Below, piece by piece: positions 30,233 through 36,433 of a stretch of DNA of 50,335 nucleotides (its first letter is position 1; each line of letters starts with the position of its first letter). The position numbers and the translations under genes are program-made. Source of the stretch: a virus. The notes beneath the pieces were generated by a model, which made no database searches, was not told the origin of the DNA, and was given only the letters and a program-made list of their open reading frames with translations. The stretch lies in the UHGV virus genome UHGV-1998140. One strand, given 5' to 3'.

Positions 30233-31309
30233 TTATGCCCCCAAACCATCGGGGGCCATACTCTTAACTAATTCATTCATCTCTTTTACCGTCTGCTCAA
30301 ACCGCTCCTTTTCAAGTTCGACTCCAATCCCTTTACGGCCAAGGGCTGCAGCAGCTTTCAACGTTGAACCCGACCCCATAAAGAAATCGGCAACAATGTC
30401 TCCCGGTCTACTGCTGGCACTGATAATCTGCTTCAGCATGTCGGCCGGCTTTTCGCATGGGTGTTTACCCGGATAGAACTGGACCGGCTTATGTGTCCAG
30501 ACGTCCGTATAGGGAACAAGCGCTGAAACGGTGAAATGACGCCGGAGAGATTTGTATTCCTCCAGCAATTCCGAATATTTGCGGTTCAGAGAATGCCAGG
30601 TTGCTACCAACTCATGATGAGGTTGGGCCAACTCTTTTTTCTGATATTTCTCCGCGGCGACCATTGAAAATAGCGCCTGCAGTTTTAAATAGTCGCTTTC
30701 GTTTGGCAGCTGCCATTGGCTTATGCCGAACCAGTGCGACACCATGTTTTTTTTGCCGGTAGCGTCAGCTATCTGCTTAGCACTGACGCCAAGCGAATCT
30801 CGGGCATTACGGAAATAAGATATTAGCGGCGCCATCAAATGCTGCTTAAGGTCATTGCTCTTTTCCGTATTTCCATCATCTTTTGGCTGATACGGTCCCT
30901 GATAATGCCCAGCAAACAATATTCGCTCTGTAGCTGGAAAATAGGACCTTAAACTCTCTTTATTGTAGCCGTTCCACCGTCCCGATGGCTTCGCCCAAAT
31001 GATGTGATTCAGTACGTTAAACCGACCCCGTACTAAAATCTCGATATCTGAGGCAAGCCGATGACCAGAGAACAGATAAAGGCTACCGTTCGGCTTTAAA
31101 ACACGCCAGAACTGCGCCAGACACATATCAAGCCAATTTAAATAGTCTTCATCCCCTTCCCATTGGTTGTCCCAACCATTCGGCTTAACCTTGAAATACG
31201 GCGGATCCGTAACTATCAAGTCAATAGAGTTATCAGGGAGGGACGGAAGATATTGCAGGCAATCAGCGTTGATTAATTCAGCACTGGATATTTTTACAGT
31301 GTTTTTCAT
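30233..31309 (-). CDS. DNA methyltransferase (beta-class, N6-adenine or N4-cytosine)
   Basis: DPPY motif (LIVTDPPYF) near N-terminus and FxGxG (FFMGSGST) near C-terminus. Confidence 0.75.
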   Translation of the reverse strand: MKNTVKISSAELINADCLQYLPSLPDNSIDLIVTDPPYFKVKPNGWDNQWEGDEDYLNWLDMCLAQFWRVLKPNGSLYLFSGHRLASDIEILVRGRFNVLNHIIWAKPSGRWNGYNKESLRSYFPATERILFAGHYQGPYQPKDDGNTEKSNDLKQHLMAPLISYFRNARDSLGVSAKQIADATGKKNMVSHWFGISQWQLPNESDYLKLQALFSMVAAEKYQKKELAQPHHELVATWHSLNRKYSELLEEYKSLRRHFTVSALVPYTDVWTHKPVQFYPGKHPCEKPADMLKQIISASSRPGDIVADFFMGSGSTLKAAAALGRKGIGVELEKERFEQTVKEMNELVKSMAPDGLGA

Positions 31310-31730
31310 AGATCAGTAAGCAGGACTCTGTTAGGCTCACTATGCTTTTGCGCTAAAGCAGTGGGCCCTGGTTCGCTTGTGACCTTCTACATGAGCGAAT
31401 GGCTGGTCGGGTGCTCCAACACCCACCAGCCGCCCATTTTCACAGCAGAAAGCCCCCCGCTAAGGGAGGCGCTTATAACATCCGAATTGATAGTCCGATA
31501 AACCTGCCATTACGAGCTGCGTTAAAATTAACTGGCAGCGTTCGCGCGTCAGATGTGTGTTTTACGAAATCTCCCCAACCGTAGCTGGCTCATCACTCAA
31601 CTCATTTAAAACCGCTCGCGCCAATTCCGTCATATTATCTTGATTTAGCATGTCTTTTTCCTTTTTTAACAGTACGACACACAGATAACTCTGGTTGCTA
31701 ACCCCATCAAGAAGTAATTGCAGAAGGCAT

Positions 31731-31753
31731 AAAAAAACCCCGCCGTAGCGAGG
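31731..31753 (-). terminator. Candidate tR' (late leader terminator downstream of Q)
   Basis: Minus-strand stem CCUCGC-UACG-GCGGGG with one G-U pair (C-A mismatch on plus strand) followed by 7 U. Confidence 0.5.
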
Positions 31754-33622: not shown

Positions 33623-35553
33623 GCAACCTCCCTCTGCTCAGGTATGCACATTTCCGGTAAATTTGCCCTTACCAGTGCTTCAGCGAATGGTGGAGGAACA
33701 GCGTTTCCACAACGAGCGACCTGTTTATCTTTTGCATAACGATTACCGCGGTAATCGCGATCAATAATGTAATCCGCAGGAAATCCCTGTGCCCTGTATA
33801 ACTCATGAGGCTGCAGCATGCGCATTCCAATATCGATAATCTGATATTTGACGCCGTAGATCGTCACCAACCATTCATTTGGGTTTTCTCCACAGTACGT
33901 TTCAAGGAAGGTTCTAACTTCTCCTACATGTTGGCCACCAGCGGTGATCGTAGGCATTGGGTCGTCCAGTGGCTGCCCGTCCTGGCATGTACCACGAAAC
34001 TTGACCAGATGAGAGGCAACAACAGCGTGATGATCTACTGTCGTCACAGAATGCGTCGGTTCATCAAGGCCGATCCCCGGCCCGGTATAATTTCCACCGT
34101 AGTGCTTTGCCAGGAACGCGCTGACCGTCGCAAACTTATTGCCGCCGGCGGTGACCGTACCCAGGGGATTATTTAGCTTCAGTACCCGTGGCTCCTGGCC
34201 TGGACGTTCACCGTAGCCCATCTGGATCAGAGTAGGCGTCACCAGTTGCGATTTACCGCCGCCACCAGCTGTGATTGTTGCGCTGGGCTCATCCGCCCGG
34301 TGCCCGATGCTGGCGCCAAACTGGCGCGCGATAATCGGAGCGACGACACAGGCGCGCGACTCTTTCAGGACGGTGTGAACGGGTTTATTCAGCGGCCGTG
34401 GTTTCGCCTGATATTCACTACCACCGTTTCCCGCGAGGAACGGGATCAGACCCGCCTCAACAATCCCCAACGCATGCCCATTCCCGCCCGGGCGCTTAGA
34501 CGTGCCGGCGGTTACCGTCGGTAACGGTTCGGAGACTGGCTGCCCGGTGGCTCCAGTTCGGAATTTTGTCAGATGAGGTACCGCAATTGCGTAGCCGTGG
34601 GTTTTCGTAATCGTTTGTAGCGGATCGTCCAGCGCCTGTCCTCTGAAACAATCATATTTGCCTTTAGTGGTCGTATGGTTGCACTTCACGATGAATGGCG
34701 ATGCGCTCTCAATAACGAAGCGCTGTATGCCGCGCGCAATACGTTTCAGCGTATTCTCTGCCAACGGTTTTTTTCGGTCGAAAATAGACTTCGCCGGAAT
34801 ATCCCAGTCGATACACTCAGCAGCGGTTCGCCATGGCGCCAGTCTTCCGCTCTGTACTTCCAAAGATTTCGGATCCCCATGGGTTGGCGCTGGCCAGCGT
34901 ACACTTTCACCGTCGCAGCGCATCACCATAAAGAAACGTTTGCGGATGGTCGGCGCCCCGAAGTCGCAGGCGCGCAACTCGCGGTAATCGATGTTGTATC
35001 CCAGCCCCTGAATCAAAGACAAAGCATGCTCGCTACCTGGCGCGATGGACAGAAACTCGCACACCTCCGCAAGCGCCGGATGATCCGGATCAATGCCGGT
35101 AGACAACATGCCAACGAATGCAGCAAACGTTTCTCCGGTACGCGCCGGATCCGGGCGCATCTCATCCTCCAGCAGCGGCCCCCAGGTTTTAAACTCTTCG
35201 ACGTTCTCCAGCATCATGACGCGGGGACGCTTCGCCAGCGCCCAGCGAATGACGACCCACGCCAGTCCCCTGATCTCTTTTTTTACCGGTTTCGCGCCCT
35301 TGGCTTTGGAGAAGTGCCGGCAATCCGGGCTGAACCATGCGAGACCTACAGGGTTTCCGCCCGTCGCCGCCACCGGATCGACATCAAATACAGACTCACA
35401 GTAATGCAGCGTATCCGGGTGGTTCGTCTTGTGCATGGCAATGGCGTTTTCATCATGGTTGATGGCGATGTCAACACTGCGCCCAATCGCCAGCTCGATT
35501 CCGGTAGACGCGCCGCCGCCGCCAGCAAAGTTATCAACGATAATCTCACGCAT
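33619..35553 (-). CDS. DNA (cytosine-5)-methyltransferase
   Basis: Start at ATG 35553 with AGGGGG RBS; motif I FAGGGG, PDC-containing motif IV, ENV motif (MMLENVEEF). Confidence 0.85.
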   Translation of the reverse strand: MREIIVDNFAGGGGASTGIELAIGRSVDIAINHDENAIAMHKTNHPDTLHYCESVFDVDPVAATGGNPVGLAWFSPDCRHFSKAKGAKPVKKEIRGLAWVVIRWALAKRPRVMMLENVEEFKTWGPLLEDEMRPDPARTGETFAAFVGMLSTGIDPDHPALAEVCEFLSIAPGSEHALSLIQGLGYNIDYRELRACDFGAPTIRKRFFMVMRCDGESVRWPAPTHGDPKSLEVQSGRLAPWRTAAECIDWDIPAKSIFDRKKPLAENTLKRIARGIQRFVIESASPFIVKCNHTTTKGKYDCFRGQALDDPLQTITKTHGYAIAVPHLTKFRTGATGQPVSEPLPTVTAGTSKRPGGNGHALGIVEAGLIPFLAGNGGSEYQAKPRPLNKPVHTVLKESRACVVAPIIARQFGASIGHRADEPSATITAGGGGKSQLVTPTLIQMGYGERPGQEPRVLKLNNPLGTVTAGGNKFATVSAFLAKHYGGNYTGPGIGLDEPTHSVTTVDHHAVVASHLVKFRGTCQDGQPLDDPMPTITAGGQHVGEVRTFLETYCGENPNEWLVTIYGVKYQIIDIGMRMLQPHELYRAQGFPADYIIDRDYRGNRYAKDKQVARCGNAVPPPFAEALVRANLPEMCIPEQREVA

Positions 35554-36433
35554 GGACCGCCCCCTGCATGCTGCTGACCAGCCCACCAGCAATGGTTATG
35601 ATCTCGTTAATTGATGTGCGCTCCAACCACAGCTGGTTGATGTGGGCTTTCAACTTGTTCTGCTGGGACTCTTCCAGATCGCTGGCCCCTTCAACCTGCC
35701 CAAATGCCAGATTGACTTCCAGCGGCCAGATGCGAGATTCAATAACATGCTCGACCACTGGTTTAGCAGCCGGAGTTGGAGCCACATCCTTCGCCGGAAA
35801 TAACAGCCCAGCGGCAAACTGCGCCAGCGCCATACTTGCGCGCCCTTTCGCTTCCAGCTCTGCGCGATCGATATAGCTAAAACGCTCACCGCGCCAGGCC
35901 TTATCGAATACCGCAATGGCCCCCGCAAAGAAAGCGCTGGTGGGTTTCTGCTTTTCGTCGGCCGGCACAAACCATACAGGGAGATCGAATCCAATACGAC
36001 CACGAATAAACATGATGTGATCGGCATCTTCCGGCCACCATGTTTCACTTGTTGCTGACTTAACGAGGTAAATGTAGCGACCACCCTTTTCACGCTGCTC
36101 GGCGGTATATTTCATGATATGAGTCATGCCAGTTATGGCTTGTTTTTTATGGTACTGCGAGCGGCTGTAGGGCGGATTAGCAAAGGCTGCACCGCCGAGT
36201 TCAGCCAGTCGCCCAGACCAGTCCTGTGTTAATGCATTATCTTCAGCGGTATACCATGCCGGGCATTTCGCATTGCTGTCGTCAGCAAACAGATCCAGAA
36301 CAAGAGGACCAAATAACGCATTAATTCCCCAGAACAAAAGATCAGGTGTACGCCACTGATCACCAACTTCTTTTAAGTAATGGGACGGTGCAGCGCGCAT
36401 TGCTTCCAGCGATTCACAATATGCATTCATCAC
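35546..36433 (-). CDS. Phage-type N6-adenine DNA methyltransferase
   Basis: 295 aa with NPPY motif (FANPPYS). Confidence 0.7.
   Translation of the reverse strand: MMNAYCESLEAMRAAPSHYLKEVGDQWRTPDLLFWGINALFGPLVLDLFADDSNAKCPAWYTAEDNALTQDWSGRLAELGGAAFANPPYSRSQYHKKQAITGMTHIMKYTAEQREKGGRYIYLVKSATSETWWPEDADHIMFIRGRIGFDLPVWFVPADEKQKPTSAFFAGAIAVFDKAWRGERFSYIDRAELEAKGRASMALAQFAAGLLFPAKDVAPTPAAKPVVEHVIESRIWPLEVNLAFGQVEGASDLEESQQNKLKAHINQLWLERTSINEIITIAGGLVSSMQGAVHA

What the first reader, a model, noticed from the sequence alone, without database searches (positions are those of the whole stretch)
30233..36433. Three orphan DNA methyltransferases of different classes
The prophage encodes a DPPY-type beta-class methyltransferase (30233-31309), a large C5-cytosine methyltransferase (33619-35553) and an NPPY Dam-like N6-adenine methyltransferase (35546-36433), with no cognate restriction endonuclease seen. 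This suggests broad self-methylation as an anti-restriction strategy.
Basis: partly seen in the sequence, partly recalled or inferred. Interest (0 to 1): 0.5.

Follow-up and report, generated by a model that had tools for sequence, protein, structure and literature searches.

The report
Three phage DNA methylases, no nuclease
A lambda-like prophage carries three intact DNA methyltransferases and no restriction enzyme; one is a close relative of the known "methylate every adenine" enzyme M.EcoGII, and another is a cytosine methylase with seven tandem recognition-like modules, so the phage most likely coats its own DNA with methyl groups to escape host restriction.

Summary
Three intact methyltransferase (MTase) genes lie on the minus strand at the stated coordinates, and no restriction endonuclease was found among the ORFs I tested.

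- **ORF A (30233-31309)** is 77% identical over its full length to M.EcoGII, the characterised non-specific adenine MTase of E. coli prophages. It sits behind Q and two terminator-like hairpins, in the late operon.
- **ORF C (35546-36433)** is a PF05869 phage Dam-type enzyme. Its last ~60 residues are a separate, unannotated domain.
- **ORF B (33619-35553)** is a C5-cytosine MTase of a phage-borne subfamily whose motif IV reads SPDC. Between motifs VIII and IX it has seven tandem ~32-48-aa modules. Close relatives gain or lose whole modules (6-9), and wider relatives hold 1-12. The modules resemble a unit of the variable region of the Bacillus phage SPβ methylase. The most likely reading is a multispecific enzyme.

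In 64 of 80 related loci, the C-terminal domain of C lies directly upstream of a B homologue, usually with overlapping stop and start codons. It occurs alone or fused to three different adenine-MTase types.

The strategy itself is known. The enterobacterial multi-module C5 enzyme and its partner domain appear undescribed in the literature I could search.

The parts
30233..31309 (-). ORF A: beta-class N6-adenine methyltransferase, an orthologue of the non-specific enzyme M.EcoGII
   Evidence: PF01555, E 1.2e-42. BLASTP against M.EcoGII (sequence from Suppl. Table S1 of PMC11551740): 267/349 identical (77%), 88% positives, end to end, with DPPY and FxGxG conserved. PADLOC MTase_II model PDLC03265, E 2e-146.
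31310..31844 (-). Intergenic region between Q and ORF A with two terminator-like hairpins (31755-31736 and 31470-31452). Probably the late promoter and its Q-antiterminated leader.
   Evidence: Terminator-like sites on the minus strand; sequence read directly. No promoter was called on the minus strand by the consensus scan, so the late promoter is inferred from lambdoid gene order.
31845..32693 (-). Antitermination protein Q
   Evidence: PF06323 Phage_antiter_Q, E 1.1e-34. Gene calls on other contigs use an internal start, giving 232 aa.
32564..33622 (-). DUF968 protein with an HNH-like C-terminus. Its start overlaps the stop of ORF B (ATGA). I do not consider it a cognate restriction enzyme.
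   Evidence: PF06147, E 1.2e-72, with a weak HNHc_6 match; PHROG 96 'HNH endonuclease'; junction read. It lies within 8 kb of B homologues in only 26/80 loci and directly adjacent in about 8. It also occurs in E. coli prophages that lack the C5 gene (H27-H31).
33619..35553 (-). ORF B: C5-cytosine methyltransferase of the SPDC subfamily, 644 aa
   Evidence: PF00145. Columns invariant across 136 relatives include P76-D77-C78, E116-N117-V118, R204, R206 and N617. The AlphaFold core has pLDDT above 90; the best Foldseek hits are 3G7U, DNMT1/MET1 and M.HaeIII. Homologues are up to 94% identical in Enterobacteriaceae.
33856..34647 (-). Seven tandem TRD-like modules inside ORF B (residues 303-566). 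Core P-x-x-T-[VI]-T, then a variable loop, then a hydrophobic strand.
   Evidence: Regex and MAFFT alignment of the seven units. A module HMM finds exactly 7. Mean pairwise Smith-Waterman score is 35.7 against 18.2±0.9 in 500 shuffles. Whole-module indels occur among close homologues. Similarity to a unit of the SPβ MtbP variable region exceeds all 100 shuffles.
35840..36385 (-). ORF C, catalytic part (residues 17-198): phage Dam-type N6-adenine methyltransferase domain
   Evidence: PF05869, E 1.1e-44; TIGR01712, E 1.3e-58. 33% identical to VT2-Sakai orf32, the only annotated methyltransferase of that phage and itself PF05869.
35549..35740 (-). ORF C, C-terminal ~64-residue domain (WPxEV...HINxxWLE). 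It is the conserved partner of the C5 methyltransferase and is joined to the Dam domain by a Pro/Ala-rich linker (35741-35839).
   Evidence: Found directly upstream of B homologues in 64 of 80 loci, usually with a 4- or 8-nt stop/start overlap. It occurs alone (~85 aa) or fused to PF05869, MT-A70 or PHROG-954-type methyltransferases. No Pfam family; PHROG 16025; no PDB sequence match. 948 clusters, mostly annotated 'hypothetical protein'. The window junction ATGCGTGA was read.

Best explanation
The window holds most of a lambda-like prophage of an Enterobacteriaceae host. The integrase gene is at 44478-45659 and a host type VI secretion gene starts at 47678. The prophage encodes three intact orphan DNA methyltransferases in two transcription units that are off in the lysogen.

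**Early-right operon.** The genes run replication protein, orf85, C, B, DUF968, Q. The three junctions I read (orf85/C, C/B and B/DUF968) have overlapping stop and start codons.
- C is a Dam-type adenine methylase, probably GATC-specific.
- B is a cytosine-C5 methylase. Its single catalytic core is combined with seven tandem recognition-like modules, and each module probably directs methylation of a different short sequence, as in the multispecific enzymes of Bacillus phages.
- B is made together with a ~60-residue partner domain, which here forms the C-terminus of C.

**Late operon.** Behind Q and its terminators lies A, an orthologue of M.EcoGII, which methylates adenine in almost any context.

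**Proposed effect.** After induction, replicating and packaged phage DNA becomes heavily methylated at N6 of adenine (m6A) and at C5 of cytosine (m5C) at several sites. It then resists many type I, II and III restriction enzymes in the next host.

**Shown:** gene integrity, family membership, motif conservation, operon layout, modular architecture and its natural variation, absence of a restriction gene.

**Inferred:** enzymatic activity, target sequences, timing of expression, protection from restriction.
For: - A is 77% identical to M.EcoGII over all 349 residues. M.EcoGII is non-specific, blocks many restriction enzymes, is silent in lysogens and slows growth when constitutive (PMC5778455).
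- A lies between Q and the lysis genes, with two terminator-like hairpins upstream. Homologues occupy the same place in E. coli phages, annotated next to Q or next to holin.
- In B, the columns invariant across 136 relatives include the catalytic motifs. The core fold is confidently that of a C5 methyltransferase.
- B has seven tandem modules. Close homologues (76% identity or more) show seven architectures of 6-9 modules, differing by whole-module insertions and deletions in a conserved order. Among 150 representatives at 50% identity the count is 1-12.
- The modules match the second unit (GEPAFTVNTIDRHGVAIG) of the variable region of SPβ MtbP better than any of 100 shuffles.
- C passes the Pfam and NCBIfam cutoffs for phage Dam.
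- No restriction gene was found.
- The same three genes in the same order occur in Klebsiella spallanzanii (L039), Mixta (L051), Kluyvera (L061), Enterobacter (L002) and the isolated Citrobacter phage phiNP.
- The exact B protein lies on ~44.8-kb, phage-sized contigs in three samples.
Against: - No activity data exist for this locus.
- B's motif IV is SPDC, not the canonical PC dipeptide, and motif VIII has T where Q is usual. Both variants are conserved across the subfamily, however.
- The module region is poorly modelled (pLDDT 40-65).
- A profile of the modules finds no solved C5 methyltransferase by sequence. The module HMM hits SPβ MtbP only weakly (E 0.05 with a search space of one sequence).
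- Some or most modules could therefore be structural or inactive.
- C is only 33% identical to the GATC-specific M.EcoVT2Dam, so its target is uncertain.
- The consensus scan called no promoter on the minus strand between Q and A.
- Heavy m5C and m6A would expose the phage to methylation-dependent (type IV) nucleases, which is a cost to this strategy.
Confidence: 0.7

Rival explanations
1. B is an ordinary monospecific C5 methyltransferase. Its seven repeats together build one large target-recognition or scaffold domain, or are mostly decayed pseudo-modules, and only one sequence is methylated.
For: The repeat region is modelled with low confidence and matches no solved recognition domain. The modules are short (32-48 aa). 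The module HMM match to the SPβ enzyme is weak. No characterised member of this subfamily was found in the literature searches.
Against: Close homologues (76% identity or more) lose or gain single whole modules at module borders and remain full-length with intact catalytic motifs. That is hard to reconcile with one cooperative fold. The count ranges from 1 to 12 across the family. The loop after the T-[VI]-T core is the most variable part, with 478 crude clusters at 50% identity among 1390 distinct module sequences. Pairwise scores against a unit of the SPβ MtbP variable region exceed all shuffles.
Confidence: 0.3
2. The methyltransferases serve the phage's own life cycle or reprogramme the host, rather than evading restriction. 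Examples are Dam-type control of packaging, replication or the lysis-lysogeny decision, as with Dam methylation at P1 pac sites, or epigenetic change of the lysogen.
For: Orphan phage methyltransferases are reported to regulate viral cycles, and P1 needs Dam methylation at pac sites (review PMC12707154). C and B sit in the early-right replication/nin region. The host family usually has its own Dam, which would make a GATC enzyme redundant for protection (my own knowledge).
Against: A non-specific adenine enzyme and a many-module cytosine enzyme are poorly suited to site-specific regulation. M.EcoGII is silent in its lysogen and harmful when expressed constitutively. All three genes lie in operons that lambdoid prophages repress (gene order).
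Confidence: 0.2
3. B and the adjacent DUF968/HNH-like gene form a restriction-modification-like or self-protection pair, with methylation shielding phage DNA from the phage's own nuclease. The methyltransferases would then not be truly orphan.
For: The DUF968 start overlaps the B stop (ATGA). DUF968 has an HNH-like C-terminus and falls in PHROG 96 'HNH endonuclease'. It directly follows B in about 8 related loci.
Against: DUF968 lies within 8 kb of B homologues in only 26 of 80 loci. It occurs next to Q in E. coli prophages that lack the C5 gene (H27-H31). It has no PADLOC match. Its place just upstream of Q is where VT2-Sakai carries the NinG/Rap junction-specific endonuclease, so a recombination role is more likely.
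Confidence: 0.07

Closest known systems
M.EcoGII / M.EcoGI (non-specific beta-class N6-adenine methyltransferases of E. coli O104:H4 prophages)
   Same: ORF A is 77% identical and 88% similar over the full 349 residues. The motif order is the same (DPPY, then the central recognition domain, then FxGxG). It is also prophage-borne, and its E. coli phage homologues lie between Q and the lysis genes.
   Different: ORF A is nine residues longer at the C-terminus and comes from a different host genus. Its activity and lack of specificity have not been tested.
Multispecific C5 methyltransferases of Bacillus phages (M.SPRI, M.Phi3TI, M.SPβI/MtbP, M.Rho11sI, M.H2I) and M.BssHII
   Same: One catalytic core carries several short tandem recognition modules between motifs VIII and IX. 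Modules can be present or absent independently. The genes are orphan and sit on temperate phages. Each module has a P-x-x-T-[VIL]-T-type core like the two units in the MtbP variable region (biochemistry from my own knowledge and from review PMC12707154).
   Different: - It belongs to a different C5 subfamily: motif IV is SPDC rather than FPCP, and Bacillus phages do not appear among the leading organisms of the tblastn search, which listed only 60 of 351 records.
- It has seven modules, and relatives have up to 12. The Bacillus enzymes have two to five specificities (my own knowledge).
- Its hosts are Gram-negative.
- It has a translationally coupled partner domain.
- Multispecificity has not been demonstrated.
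Phage Dam family PF05869 / TIGR01712 (e.g. M.EcoVT2Dam of phage VT2-Sakai)
   Same: The ORF C catalytic domain scores well above the curated cutoffs and has NPPY. It lies in the nin region of a lambdoid phage, as VT2-Sakai orf32 does.
   Different: Identity to VT2-Sakai orf32 is only 33%. ORF C also carries a linker and an extra ~64-residue C-terminal domain that VT2-Sakai orf32 (175 aa) lacks.
PDB 3G7U, putative DNA modification methyltransferase of E. coli prophage CP-933R
   Same: It is the best structural and sequence match among solved structures to the catalytic core of ORF B.
   Different: The chain is 376 residues, with 348 modelled. Only about 266 columns align, at 20% identity, and there is no long array of modules.

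Membership tests
M.EcoGII family (non-specific beta-class N6A methyltransferase) | Beta-class order: N-terminal DPPY, central recognition domain, C-terminal FxGxG | tested here: met
   DPPY at residues 34-37 and FMGSGST at 310-316, both aligned with the M.EcoGII motifs. PF01555 covers residues 29-341.
M.EcoGII family (non-specific beta-class N6A methyltransferase) | Close full-length sequence similarity to M.EcoGII, including the central four-helix recognition domain (residues 160-237) | tested here: met
   267/349 identical with two gaps. The alignment is continuous through residues 160-240. The domain limits come from PMC11551740.
M.EcoGII family (non-specific beta-class N6A methyltransferase) | Methylates adenine in any sequence context | not testable with these tools
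   This requires expression followed by LC-MS or SMRT/nanopore sequencing.
C5-cytosine DNA methyltransferases (PF00145) | Conserved motifs I (FxGxG), IV (PC), VI (ENV), VIII (QxRxR), IX and X (GN) | tested here: inconclusive
   Motifs I (FAGGGG), VI (ENV), IX (RMLQPHE..QGFP) and X (GNAVPP) are canonical. Motif IV is S-P-D-C: the catalytic Cys is present but an Asp sits between P and C. Motif VIII is T-I-R-K-R. Both variants are invariant in 136 relatives, and SPDC occurs in 109/150 representatives.
C5-cytosine DNA methyltransferases (PF00145) | Class I methyltransferase fold of the C5 type | tested here: met
   In the AlphaFold model, residues 1-290 and 570-640 have pLDDT above 90. Foldseek against PDB gives 3G7U (E 1.7e-11), DNMT1/MET1 and M.HaeIII.
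Multispecific phage C5 methyltransferases (Bacillus phage type) | Several tandem recognition modules between motifs VIII and IX of one catalytic core | tested here: met
   Seven modules at residues 303-566. The internal repeat has z of about 19.5 against shuffles.
Multispecific phage C5 methyltransferases (Bacillus phage type) | Modules are independent units that can be added or removed | tested here: met
   This was met at the sequence level only. There are seven architectures of 6-9 modules among 121 proteins at 76% identity or more, differing by whole modules. Functional independence was not tested.
Multispecific phage C5 methyltransferases (Bacillus phage type) | Modules homologous to experimentally defined recognition domains | tested here: inconclusive
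   Smith-Waterman scores of 1365 modules against the SPβ MtbP variable region: maximum 50 against 37.4±3.5 in shuffles (0/100 reach it); top-50 mean 44.7 against 30.0±2.1. The module HMM, however, scores MtbP at only E 0.05, and a module profile finds no solved methyltransferase.
Multispecific phage C5 methyltransferases (Bacillus phage type) | Same sequence subfamily as M.SPRI / M.SPβI | tested here: not met
   Motif IV differs (SPDC against GFPCPTFS in MtbP). Bacillus phages are not among the ten leading organism names of the tblastn search with B, which listed only 60 of 351 records.
Multispecific phage C5 methyltransferases (Bacillus phage type) | Methylates several unrelated target sequences | not testable with these tools
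   This requires bisulfite, EM-seq or nanopore sequencing of DNA modified by the cloned enzyme.
Phage Dam family (PF05869 / TIGR01712) | Profile match above the curated cutoff, with an NPPY catalytic motif | tested here: met
   PF05869 at 152.6 bits (cutoff 28.1); TIGR01712 at 197.2 bits (cutoff 97.05); FANPPYS read in the translation.
Phage Dam family (PF05869 / TIGR01712) | GATC specificity | not testable with these tools
   M.EcoVT2Dam is reported as GATC-specific (PMC6602927), but ORF C is only 33% identical to VT2-Sakai orf32.
Type II restriction-modification system | A cognate restriction endonuclease gene next to the methyltransferase | tested here: not met
   No endonuclease family was found by Pfam or PADLOC among neighbours or the other ORFs tested. 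The nearest nuclease-like gene, DUF968, is not co-conserved with B.

The most novel reading that the evidence does not exclude
ORF B and the ~60-residue domain at the end of ORF C form a two-part, highly multispecific cytosine-methylation cassette that is widespread in prophages of Enterobacterales. One catalytic core uses seven interchangeable recognition modules (1-12 in relatives) to methylate many different sequences. A previously unannotated partner domain is needed for its activity, targeting or control, and also recruits whichever adenine methyltransferase it is fused to. This would be the first multispecific C5 methyltransferase family described outside Bacillus-type phages, and the one with the most modules.
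Probability: 0.35. Interest if true: 0.65.

Novelty: new variant of a known kind. Interest (0 to 1): 0.45.

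Why it matters
Restriction-modification is the most common barrier to phage infection and to DNA transfer. A prophage that combines a non-specific adenine methylase with a many-module cytosine methylase would make virion DNA resistant to a very wide range of restriction enzymes. That bears on phage host range, phage therapy, and gene flow among Klebsiella, Enterobacter, Citrobacter and Salmonella.

The modular C5 enzyme family is large. The sources that name these proteins call them only 'DNA cytosine methyltransferase'.

If each module encodes one specificity, the family offers two things:
- a natural library for reading the recognition code of C5 methyltransferases;
- a source of tools, as M.EcoGII already is.

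The conserved partner domain is an untested handle on how such potentially toxic enzymes are controlled or assembled.

Tried and rejected
- **First AlphaFold run on B.** Using 10 close homologues gave a useless model (pLDDT 34). The second run, with 136 sequences, resolved the catalytic core but not the module region, so structure says nothing about how the modules fold.
- **Module profile against PDB sequences.** It found no methyltransferase, only chance-level hits.
- **Partner-domain profile against PDB and Pfam.** Nothing significant.
- **Adenine-MTase fusions.** I suspected that very long relatives of B (930-1113 aa) might be adenine-MTase fusions, as in P1 Dmt. They instead carry inteins (Hint plus LAGLIDADG) near motif IV.
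- **Literature searches.** Searches for a characterised enterobacterial multispecific or promiscuous C5 phage methyltransferase found only the Bacillus phage work, M.BatI and reviews. REBASE and subscription journals could not be searched. Trautner et al. 1996 (PMC450048) is not held.
- **DUF968 as a cognate nuclease.** Rejected for lack of co-conservation with B.
- **Prophage att repeats.** None was found within the window, so the left end lies outside it.
- **GATC specificity of C.** It could not be established from 33% identity to the VT2-Sakai enzyme.

Full report
**1. Observation**

- ORF A (30233-31309, 358 aa) matches PF01555 N6_N4_Mtase at E 1.2e-42.
- ORF B (33619-35553, 644 aa from the ATG that homologues also use) matches PF00145 at E 1.2e-21, in three separate stretches.
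- ORF C (35546-36433, 295 aa) matches PF05869 Dam at E 1.1e-44, and the NCBIfam equivalog TIGR01712 'phage N-6-adenine-methyltransferase' at 197 bits against a cutoff of 97.

These are strong matches, not chance ORFs. All three are full-length relative to their homologues.

**2. Context**

The window is most of a lambdoid prophage.
- The structural genes are up to 88% identical at the DNA level to Klebsiella phage phiKO2.
- An integrase gene lies at 44478-45659, and a host type VI secretion gene (tssM/IcmF) starts at 47678 in 65% G+C DNA.
- No att repeat pair lies inside the window, so the left prophage end is outside it.
- The exact ORF B protein is found on ~44.8-kb contigs in three independent samples, with the same neighbours. 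This fits a phage genome of about that size.

On the minus strand the gene order is: Cro-like, CII-like, Rha/Ant, DUF4222-like small ORF, replication protein (36684-37547), orf85, C, B, DUF968, Q, an intergenic region with two terminator-like hairpins, A, then the holin and endolysin genes. A hicAB toxin-antitoxin pair is inserted on the opposite strand.

The junctions orf85/C (GTGA), C/B (ATGCGTGA, 8 nt) and B/DUF968 (ATGA) all overlap. This indicates one translationally coupled early-right operon.

A lies behind Q and the terminators, in the position of a Q-dependent late gene. The late promoter itself was not called by the consensus scan and is inferred from lambdoid gene order.

**3. No restriction enzyme**

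Pfam and PADLOC scans of the ORFs between 29.5 and 50 kb found no restriction endonuclease. The 23-28 kb stretch has only a terminase-adjacent HNH (24543-24998), the usual packaging helper, and small ORFs.

The DUF968 gene (32564-33622) has an HNH-like C-terminus and overlaps the end of B. It is not co-conserved with B, however:
- it lies within 8 kb in only 26 of 80 related loci, and directly adjacent in about 8;
- it sits next to Q in E. coli prophages that lack the C5 gene.

I therefore treat the three methyltransferases as orphans.

**4. ORF A is an M.EcoGII orthologue**

I took the M.EcoGII sequence from Supplementary Table S1 of PMC11551740. It aligns with ORF A at 267/349 identities (77%, 88% positives) from residue 1 to 348, including DPPY, the central recognition domain and FxGxG.

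M.EcoGII is the characterised non-specific adenine methyltransferase of E. coli O104:H4 prophages. According to PMC5778455:
- it methylates adenine in any context, up to 99% in vitro;
- it blocks many restriction enzymes;
- it is not expressed in the lysogen;
- it slows growth when constitutive.

Homologues of A lie between Q and the holin gene in E. coli, Shigella and Stx phages.

**5. ORF B: catalytic core**

The motifs read FAGGGG (I), SPDC (IV), ENV (VI), TIRKR (VIII), RMLQPHE..QGFP (IX) and GNAVPP (X).

Motif IV departs from the canonical P-C dipeptide, but the variant is conserved:
- P76-D77-C78, E116-N117-V118, R204, R206 and N617 are invariant in an alignment of 136 relatives;
- SPDC is present in 109 of 150 representatives at 50% identity.

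With that alignment, AlphaFold models residues 1-290 and 570-640 at pLDDT above 90. Foldseek returns C5 methyltransferases: 3G7U from prophage CP-933R, DNMT1/MET1 and M.HaeIII.

Relatives of 930-1113 aa carry an intein near this motif. Inteins typically sit in conserved functional sites (my own knowledge), which fits an active enzyme family.

The family is phage-borne and broad. It is found in phages of Vibrio, Pseudomonas, Rhodobacter, Rhizobium, Burkholderia, Gordonia and Mycobacterium, and in Halobacterium phage phiH. There are 2590 representatives at E ≤ 1e-30.

**6. ORF B: the modules**

Residues 303-566 consist of seven tandem units of 32-48 aa. Each has a core P-x-x-T-[VI]-T, then a variable, often glycine-rich loop, then a hydrophobic strand and an aromatic-Gly end.

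- The repeat is not chance. The mean pairwise Smith-Waterman score of the seven units is 35.7, against 18.2±0.9 in 500 shuffles.
- An HMM of the unit finds exactly seven copies here, 6-9 in 120 close homologues in step with protein length (605 aa has 6, 644 aa has 7, 690 aa has 8), and 1-12 in the 150 distant representatives.
- Among 121 proteins at 76% identity or more there are seven architectures. They differ by whole modules in a conserved order:
  - module 3 is absent in 9 proteins;
  - module 5 is absent in 17 proteins;
  - an eighth module of two different types is inserted between modules 6 and 7 in about 60 proteins.

One core with several short, independently removable modules between motifs VIII and IX is the hallmark of the multispecific C5 methyltransferases of Bacillus phages, which array several target-recognition domains in one polypeptide (review PMC12707154; details from my own knowledge of the Trautner and Noyer-Weidner work).

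I fetched SPβ MtbP (L083:25716-27047). Its variable region contains two units, GLSPTLTTMGGGH and GEPAFTVNTIDRHGVAIG. The 1365 distinct modules of the B family score up to 50 against that region, against 37.4±3.5 for shuffles (0 of 100 reach it). The matches pile up on the second unit, and the window's module 6 type is among the best-scoring matches.

The support is not complete:
- the module HMM scores MtbP only weakly;
- a module profile finds no solved methyltransferase;
- the modules are modelled at low confidence.

I therefore rate 'B works like a multispecific enzyme' at roughly even odds. I do not place it in the Bacillus phage subfamily, because its core motifs differ.

**7. ORF C and the partner domain**

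The Dam-type domain (residues 17-198) is followed by a Pro/Ala-rich linker and a ~64-residue C-terminal domain.

Across 80 loci encoding relatives of B, taken from species-representative genomes, this domain (consensus ..VWPxEV...F.QV....L....Q.KLK.HINRMWLE..P...II.AA..L) is encoded immediately upstream of B in 64 of 80 loci. These are essentially all the Enterobacterales loci, and in most the stop overlaps the B start by 4 or 8 nt. It occurs in five forms:
- alone, as an ~85-aa ORF (about 33 loci);
- fused to PF05869 Dam (30 loci, as in the window);
- fused to an MT-A70-type enzyme (L009, L052);
- fused to a PHROG-954-type methyltransferase (L011, L021, L034, L053);
- in longer fusions that add a PAPS-reductase domain (L055).

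It has no Pfam family, falls in PHROG 16025, has no match among solved structures, and is named 'hypothetical protein' in nearly all of 948 clusters.

B and this domain are therefore a conserved pair, and the adenine-methylase part is interchangeable. Its function is unknown. Candidates are an accessory or activating subunit, a tether that brings an adenine methylase to the C5 enzyme, or a brake on a toxic enzyme.

The target of C is uncertain. VT2-Sakai orf32, which is PF05869 and the only annotated methyltransferase of that phage, corresponds to the GATC-specific M.EcoVT2Dam (PMC6602927). It is only 33% identical to C.

**8. Recurrence**

The same three genes in the same order occur in Klebsiella spallanzanii (L039), Mixta (L051), Kluyvera (L061), Enterobacter wuhouensis (L002) and others, and in the isolated Citrobacter phage phiNP. 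About 10 of the 80 B loci have an M.EcoGII-type gene within 8 kb downstream. The arrangement is a recurrent phage design, not a one-off.

**9. Mechanism and verdict**

On induction, the early-right operon supplies C and B together with the partner domain. Q then switches on A along with the lysis and structural genes. Progeny DNA becomes methylated at most adenines, at several cytosine-containing sites and probably at GATC, and so resists many restriction systems in the next host.

The cost is exposure to methylation-dependent nucleases such as McrBC (PMC2614495, listed) and to the m6A-dependent enzymes described in PMC11037411 (listed).

Gene integrity, family membership, operon layout and modular architecture are shown. 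Activity, targets, timing and protection are inferred.

The anti-restriction strategy and M.EcoGII are already known. What appears undescribed, in the literature I could search, is the many-module C5 enzyme in Gram-negative prophages and its partner domain. REBASE was not available.

Noticed in passing
window 35549-35740 (C-terminus of ORF C); L012:7735-7992, L009:7153-8004, L011:7255-8004, L055:6268-8004: An unannotated ~60-aa domain (WPxEV...HINxxWLE) always sits directly upstream of the multi-module C5 methyltransferase, usually with overlapping stop and start codons. It occurs alone or fused to three unrelated adenine-methyltransferase types. It has no Pfam family and no structural match.
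   Followed up: partly
relatives of ORF B: P0131, P0168, P0189, P0212, P0213, P0214, P0241: Family members of 930-1113 aa carry an intein (Hint, plus a LAGLIDADG homing endonuclease in four of the seven). The Hint match begins at about residue 78-98, close to where motif IV (SPDC) lies in ORF B.
   Followed up: partly
window 29553-30205 (+): A hicA/hicB toxin-antitoxin pair (PF07927, PF15919) is inserted on the opposite strand between the M.EcoGII-like gene and the holin gene, with a promoter-like site at 29495-29522. It looks like a moron (an added accessory gene unit) inside the late operon.
   Followed up: no
window 25000-27800: This stretch between the terminase/HNH genes and the lysis genes has 41-43% G+C, against ~52% elsewhere in the phage, and no ORF longer than 89 aa. 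Its content is unknown.
   Followed up: no
phage records (e.g. NC_003444 SfV, NC_019716 mEp460, NC_048648): Many public phage records name PF05869 Dam-type genes 'phosphoadenosine phosphosulfate reductase'. The label probably spread from PHROG 33262, which is built on true PAPS-reductase-Dam fusions such as L055. It looks like an annotation-transfer error.
   Followed up: partly
window 32564-33622 (-): The DUF968/HNH-like gene lies just upstream of Q, the position held by the NinG/Rap junction-specific endonuclease in VT2-Sakai. It may be an alternative recombination or junction nuclease.
   Followed up: no
window 1-2631: Diverged direct repeats of 135-147 nt (families D1 and D2) lie in a stretch where no long minus-strand ORF is listed. 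This is probably a very long tail or host-specificity gene that runs off the left end of the window.
   Followed up: no
L084-L086 (samples ERR525749, ERR1015445, JGI 3300045988): The exact ORF B protein, with identical neighbours, lies on contigs of 44,759-44,897 bp in three independent samples. These are probably the whole phage genome assembled on its own.
   Followed up: no
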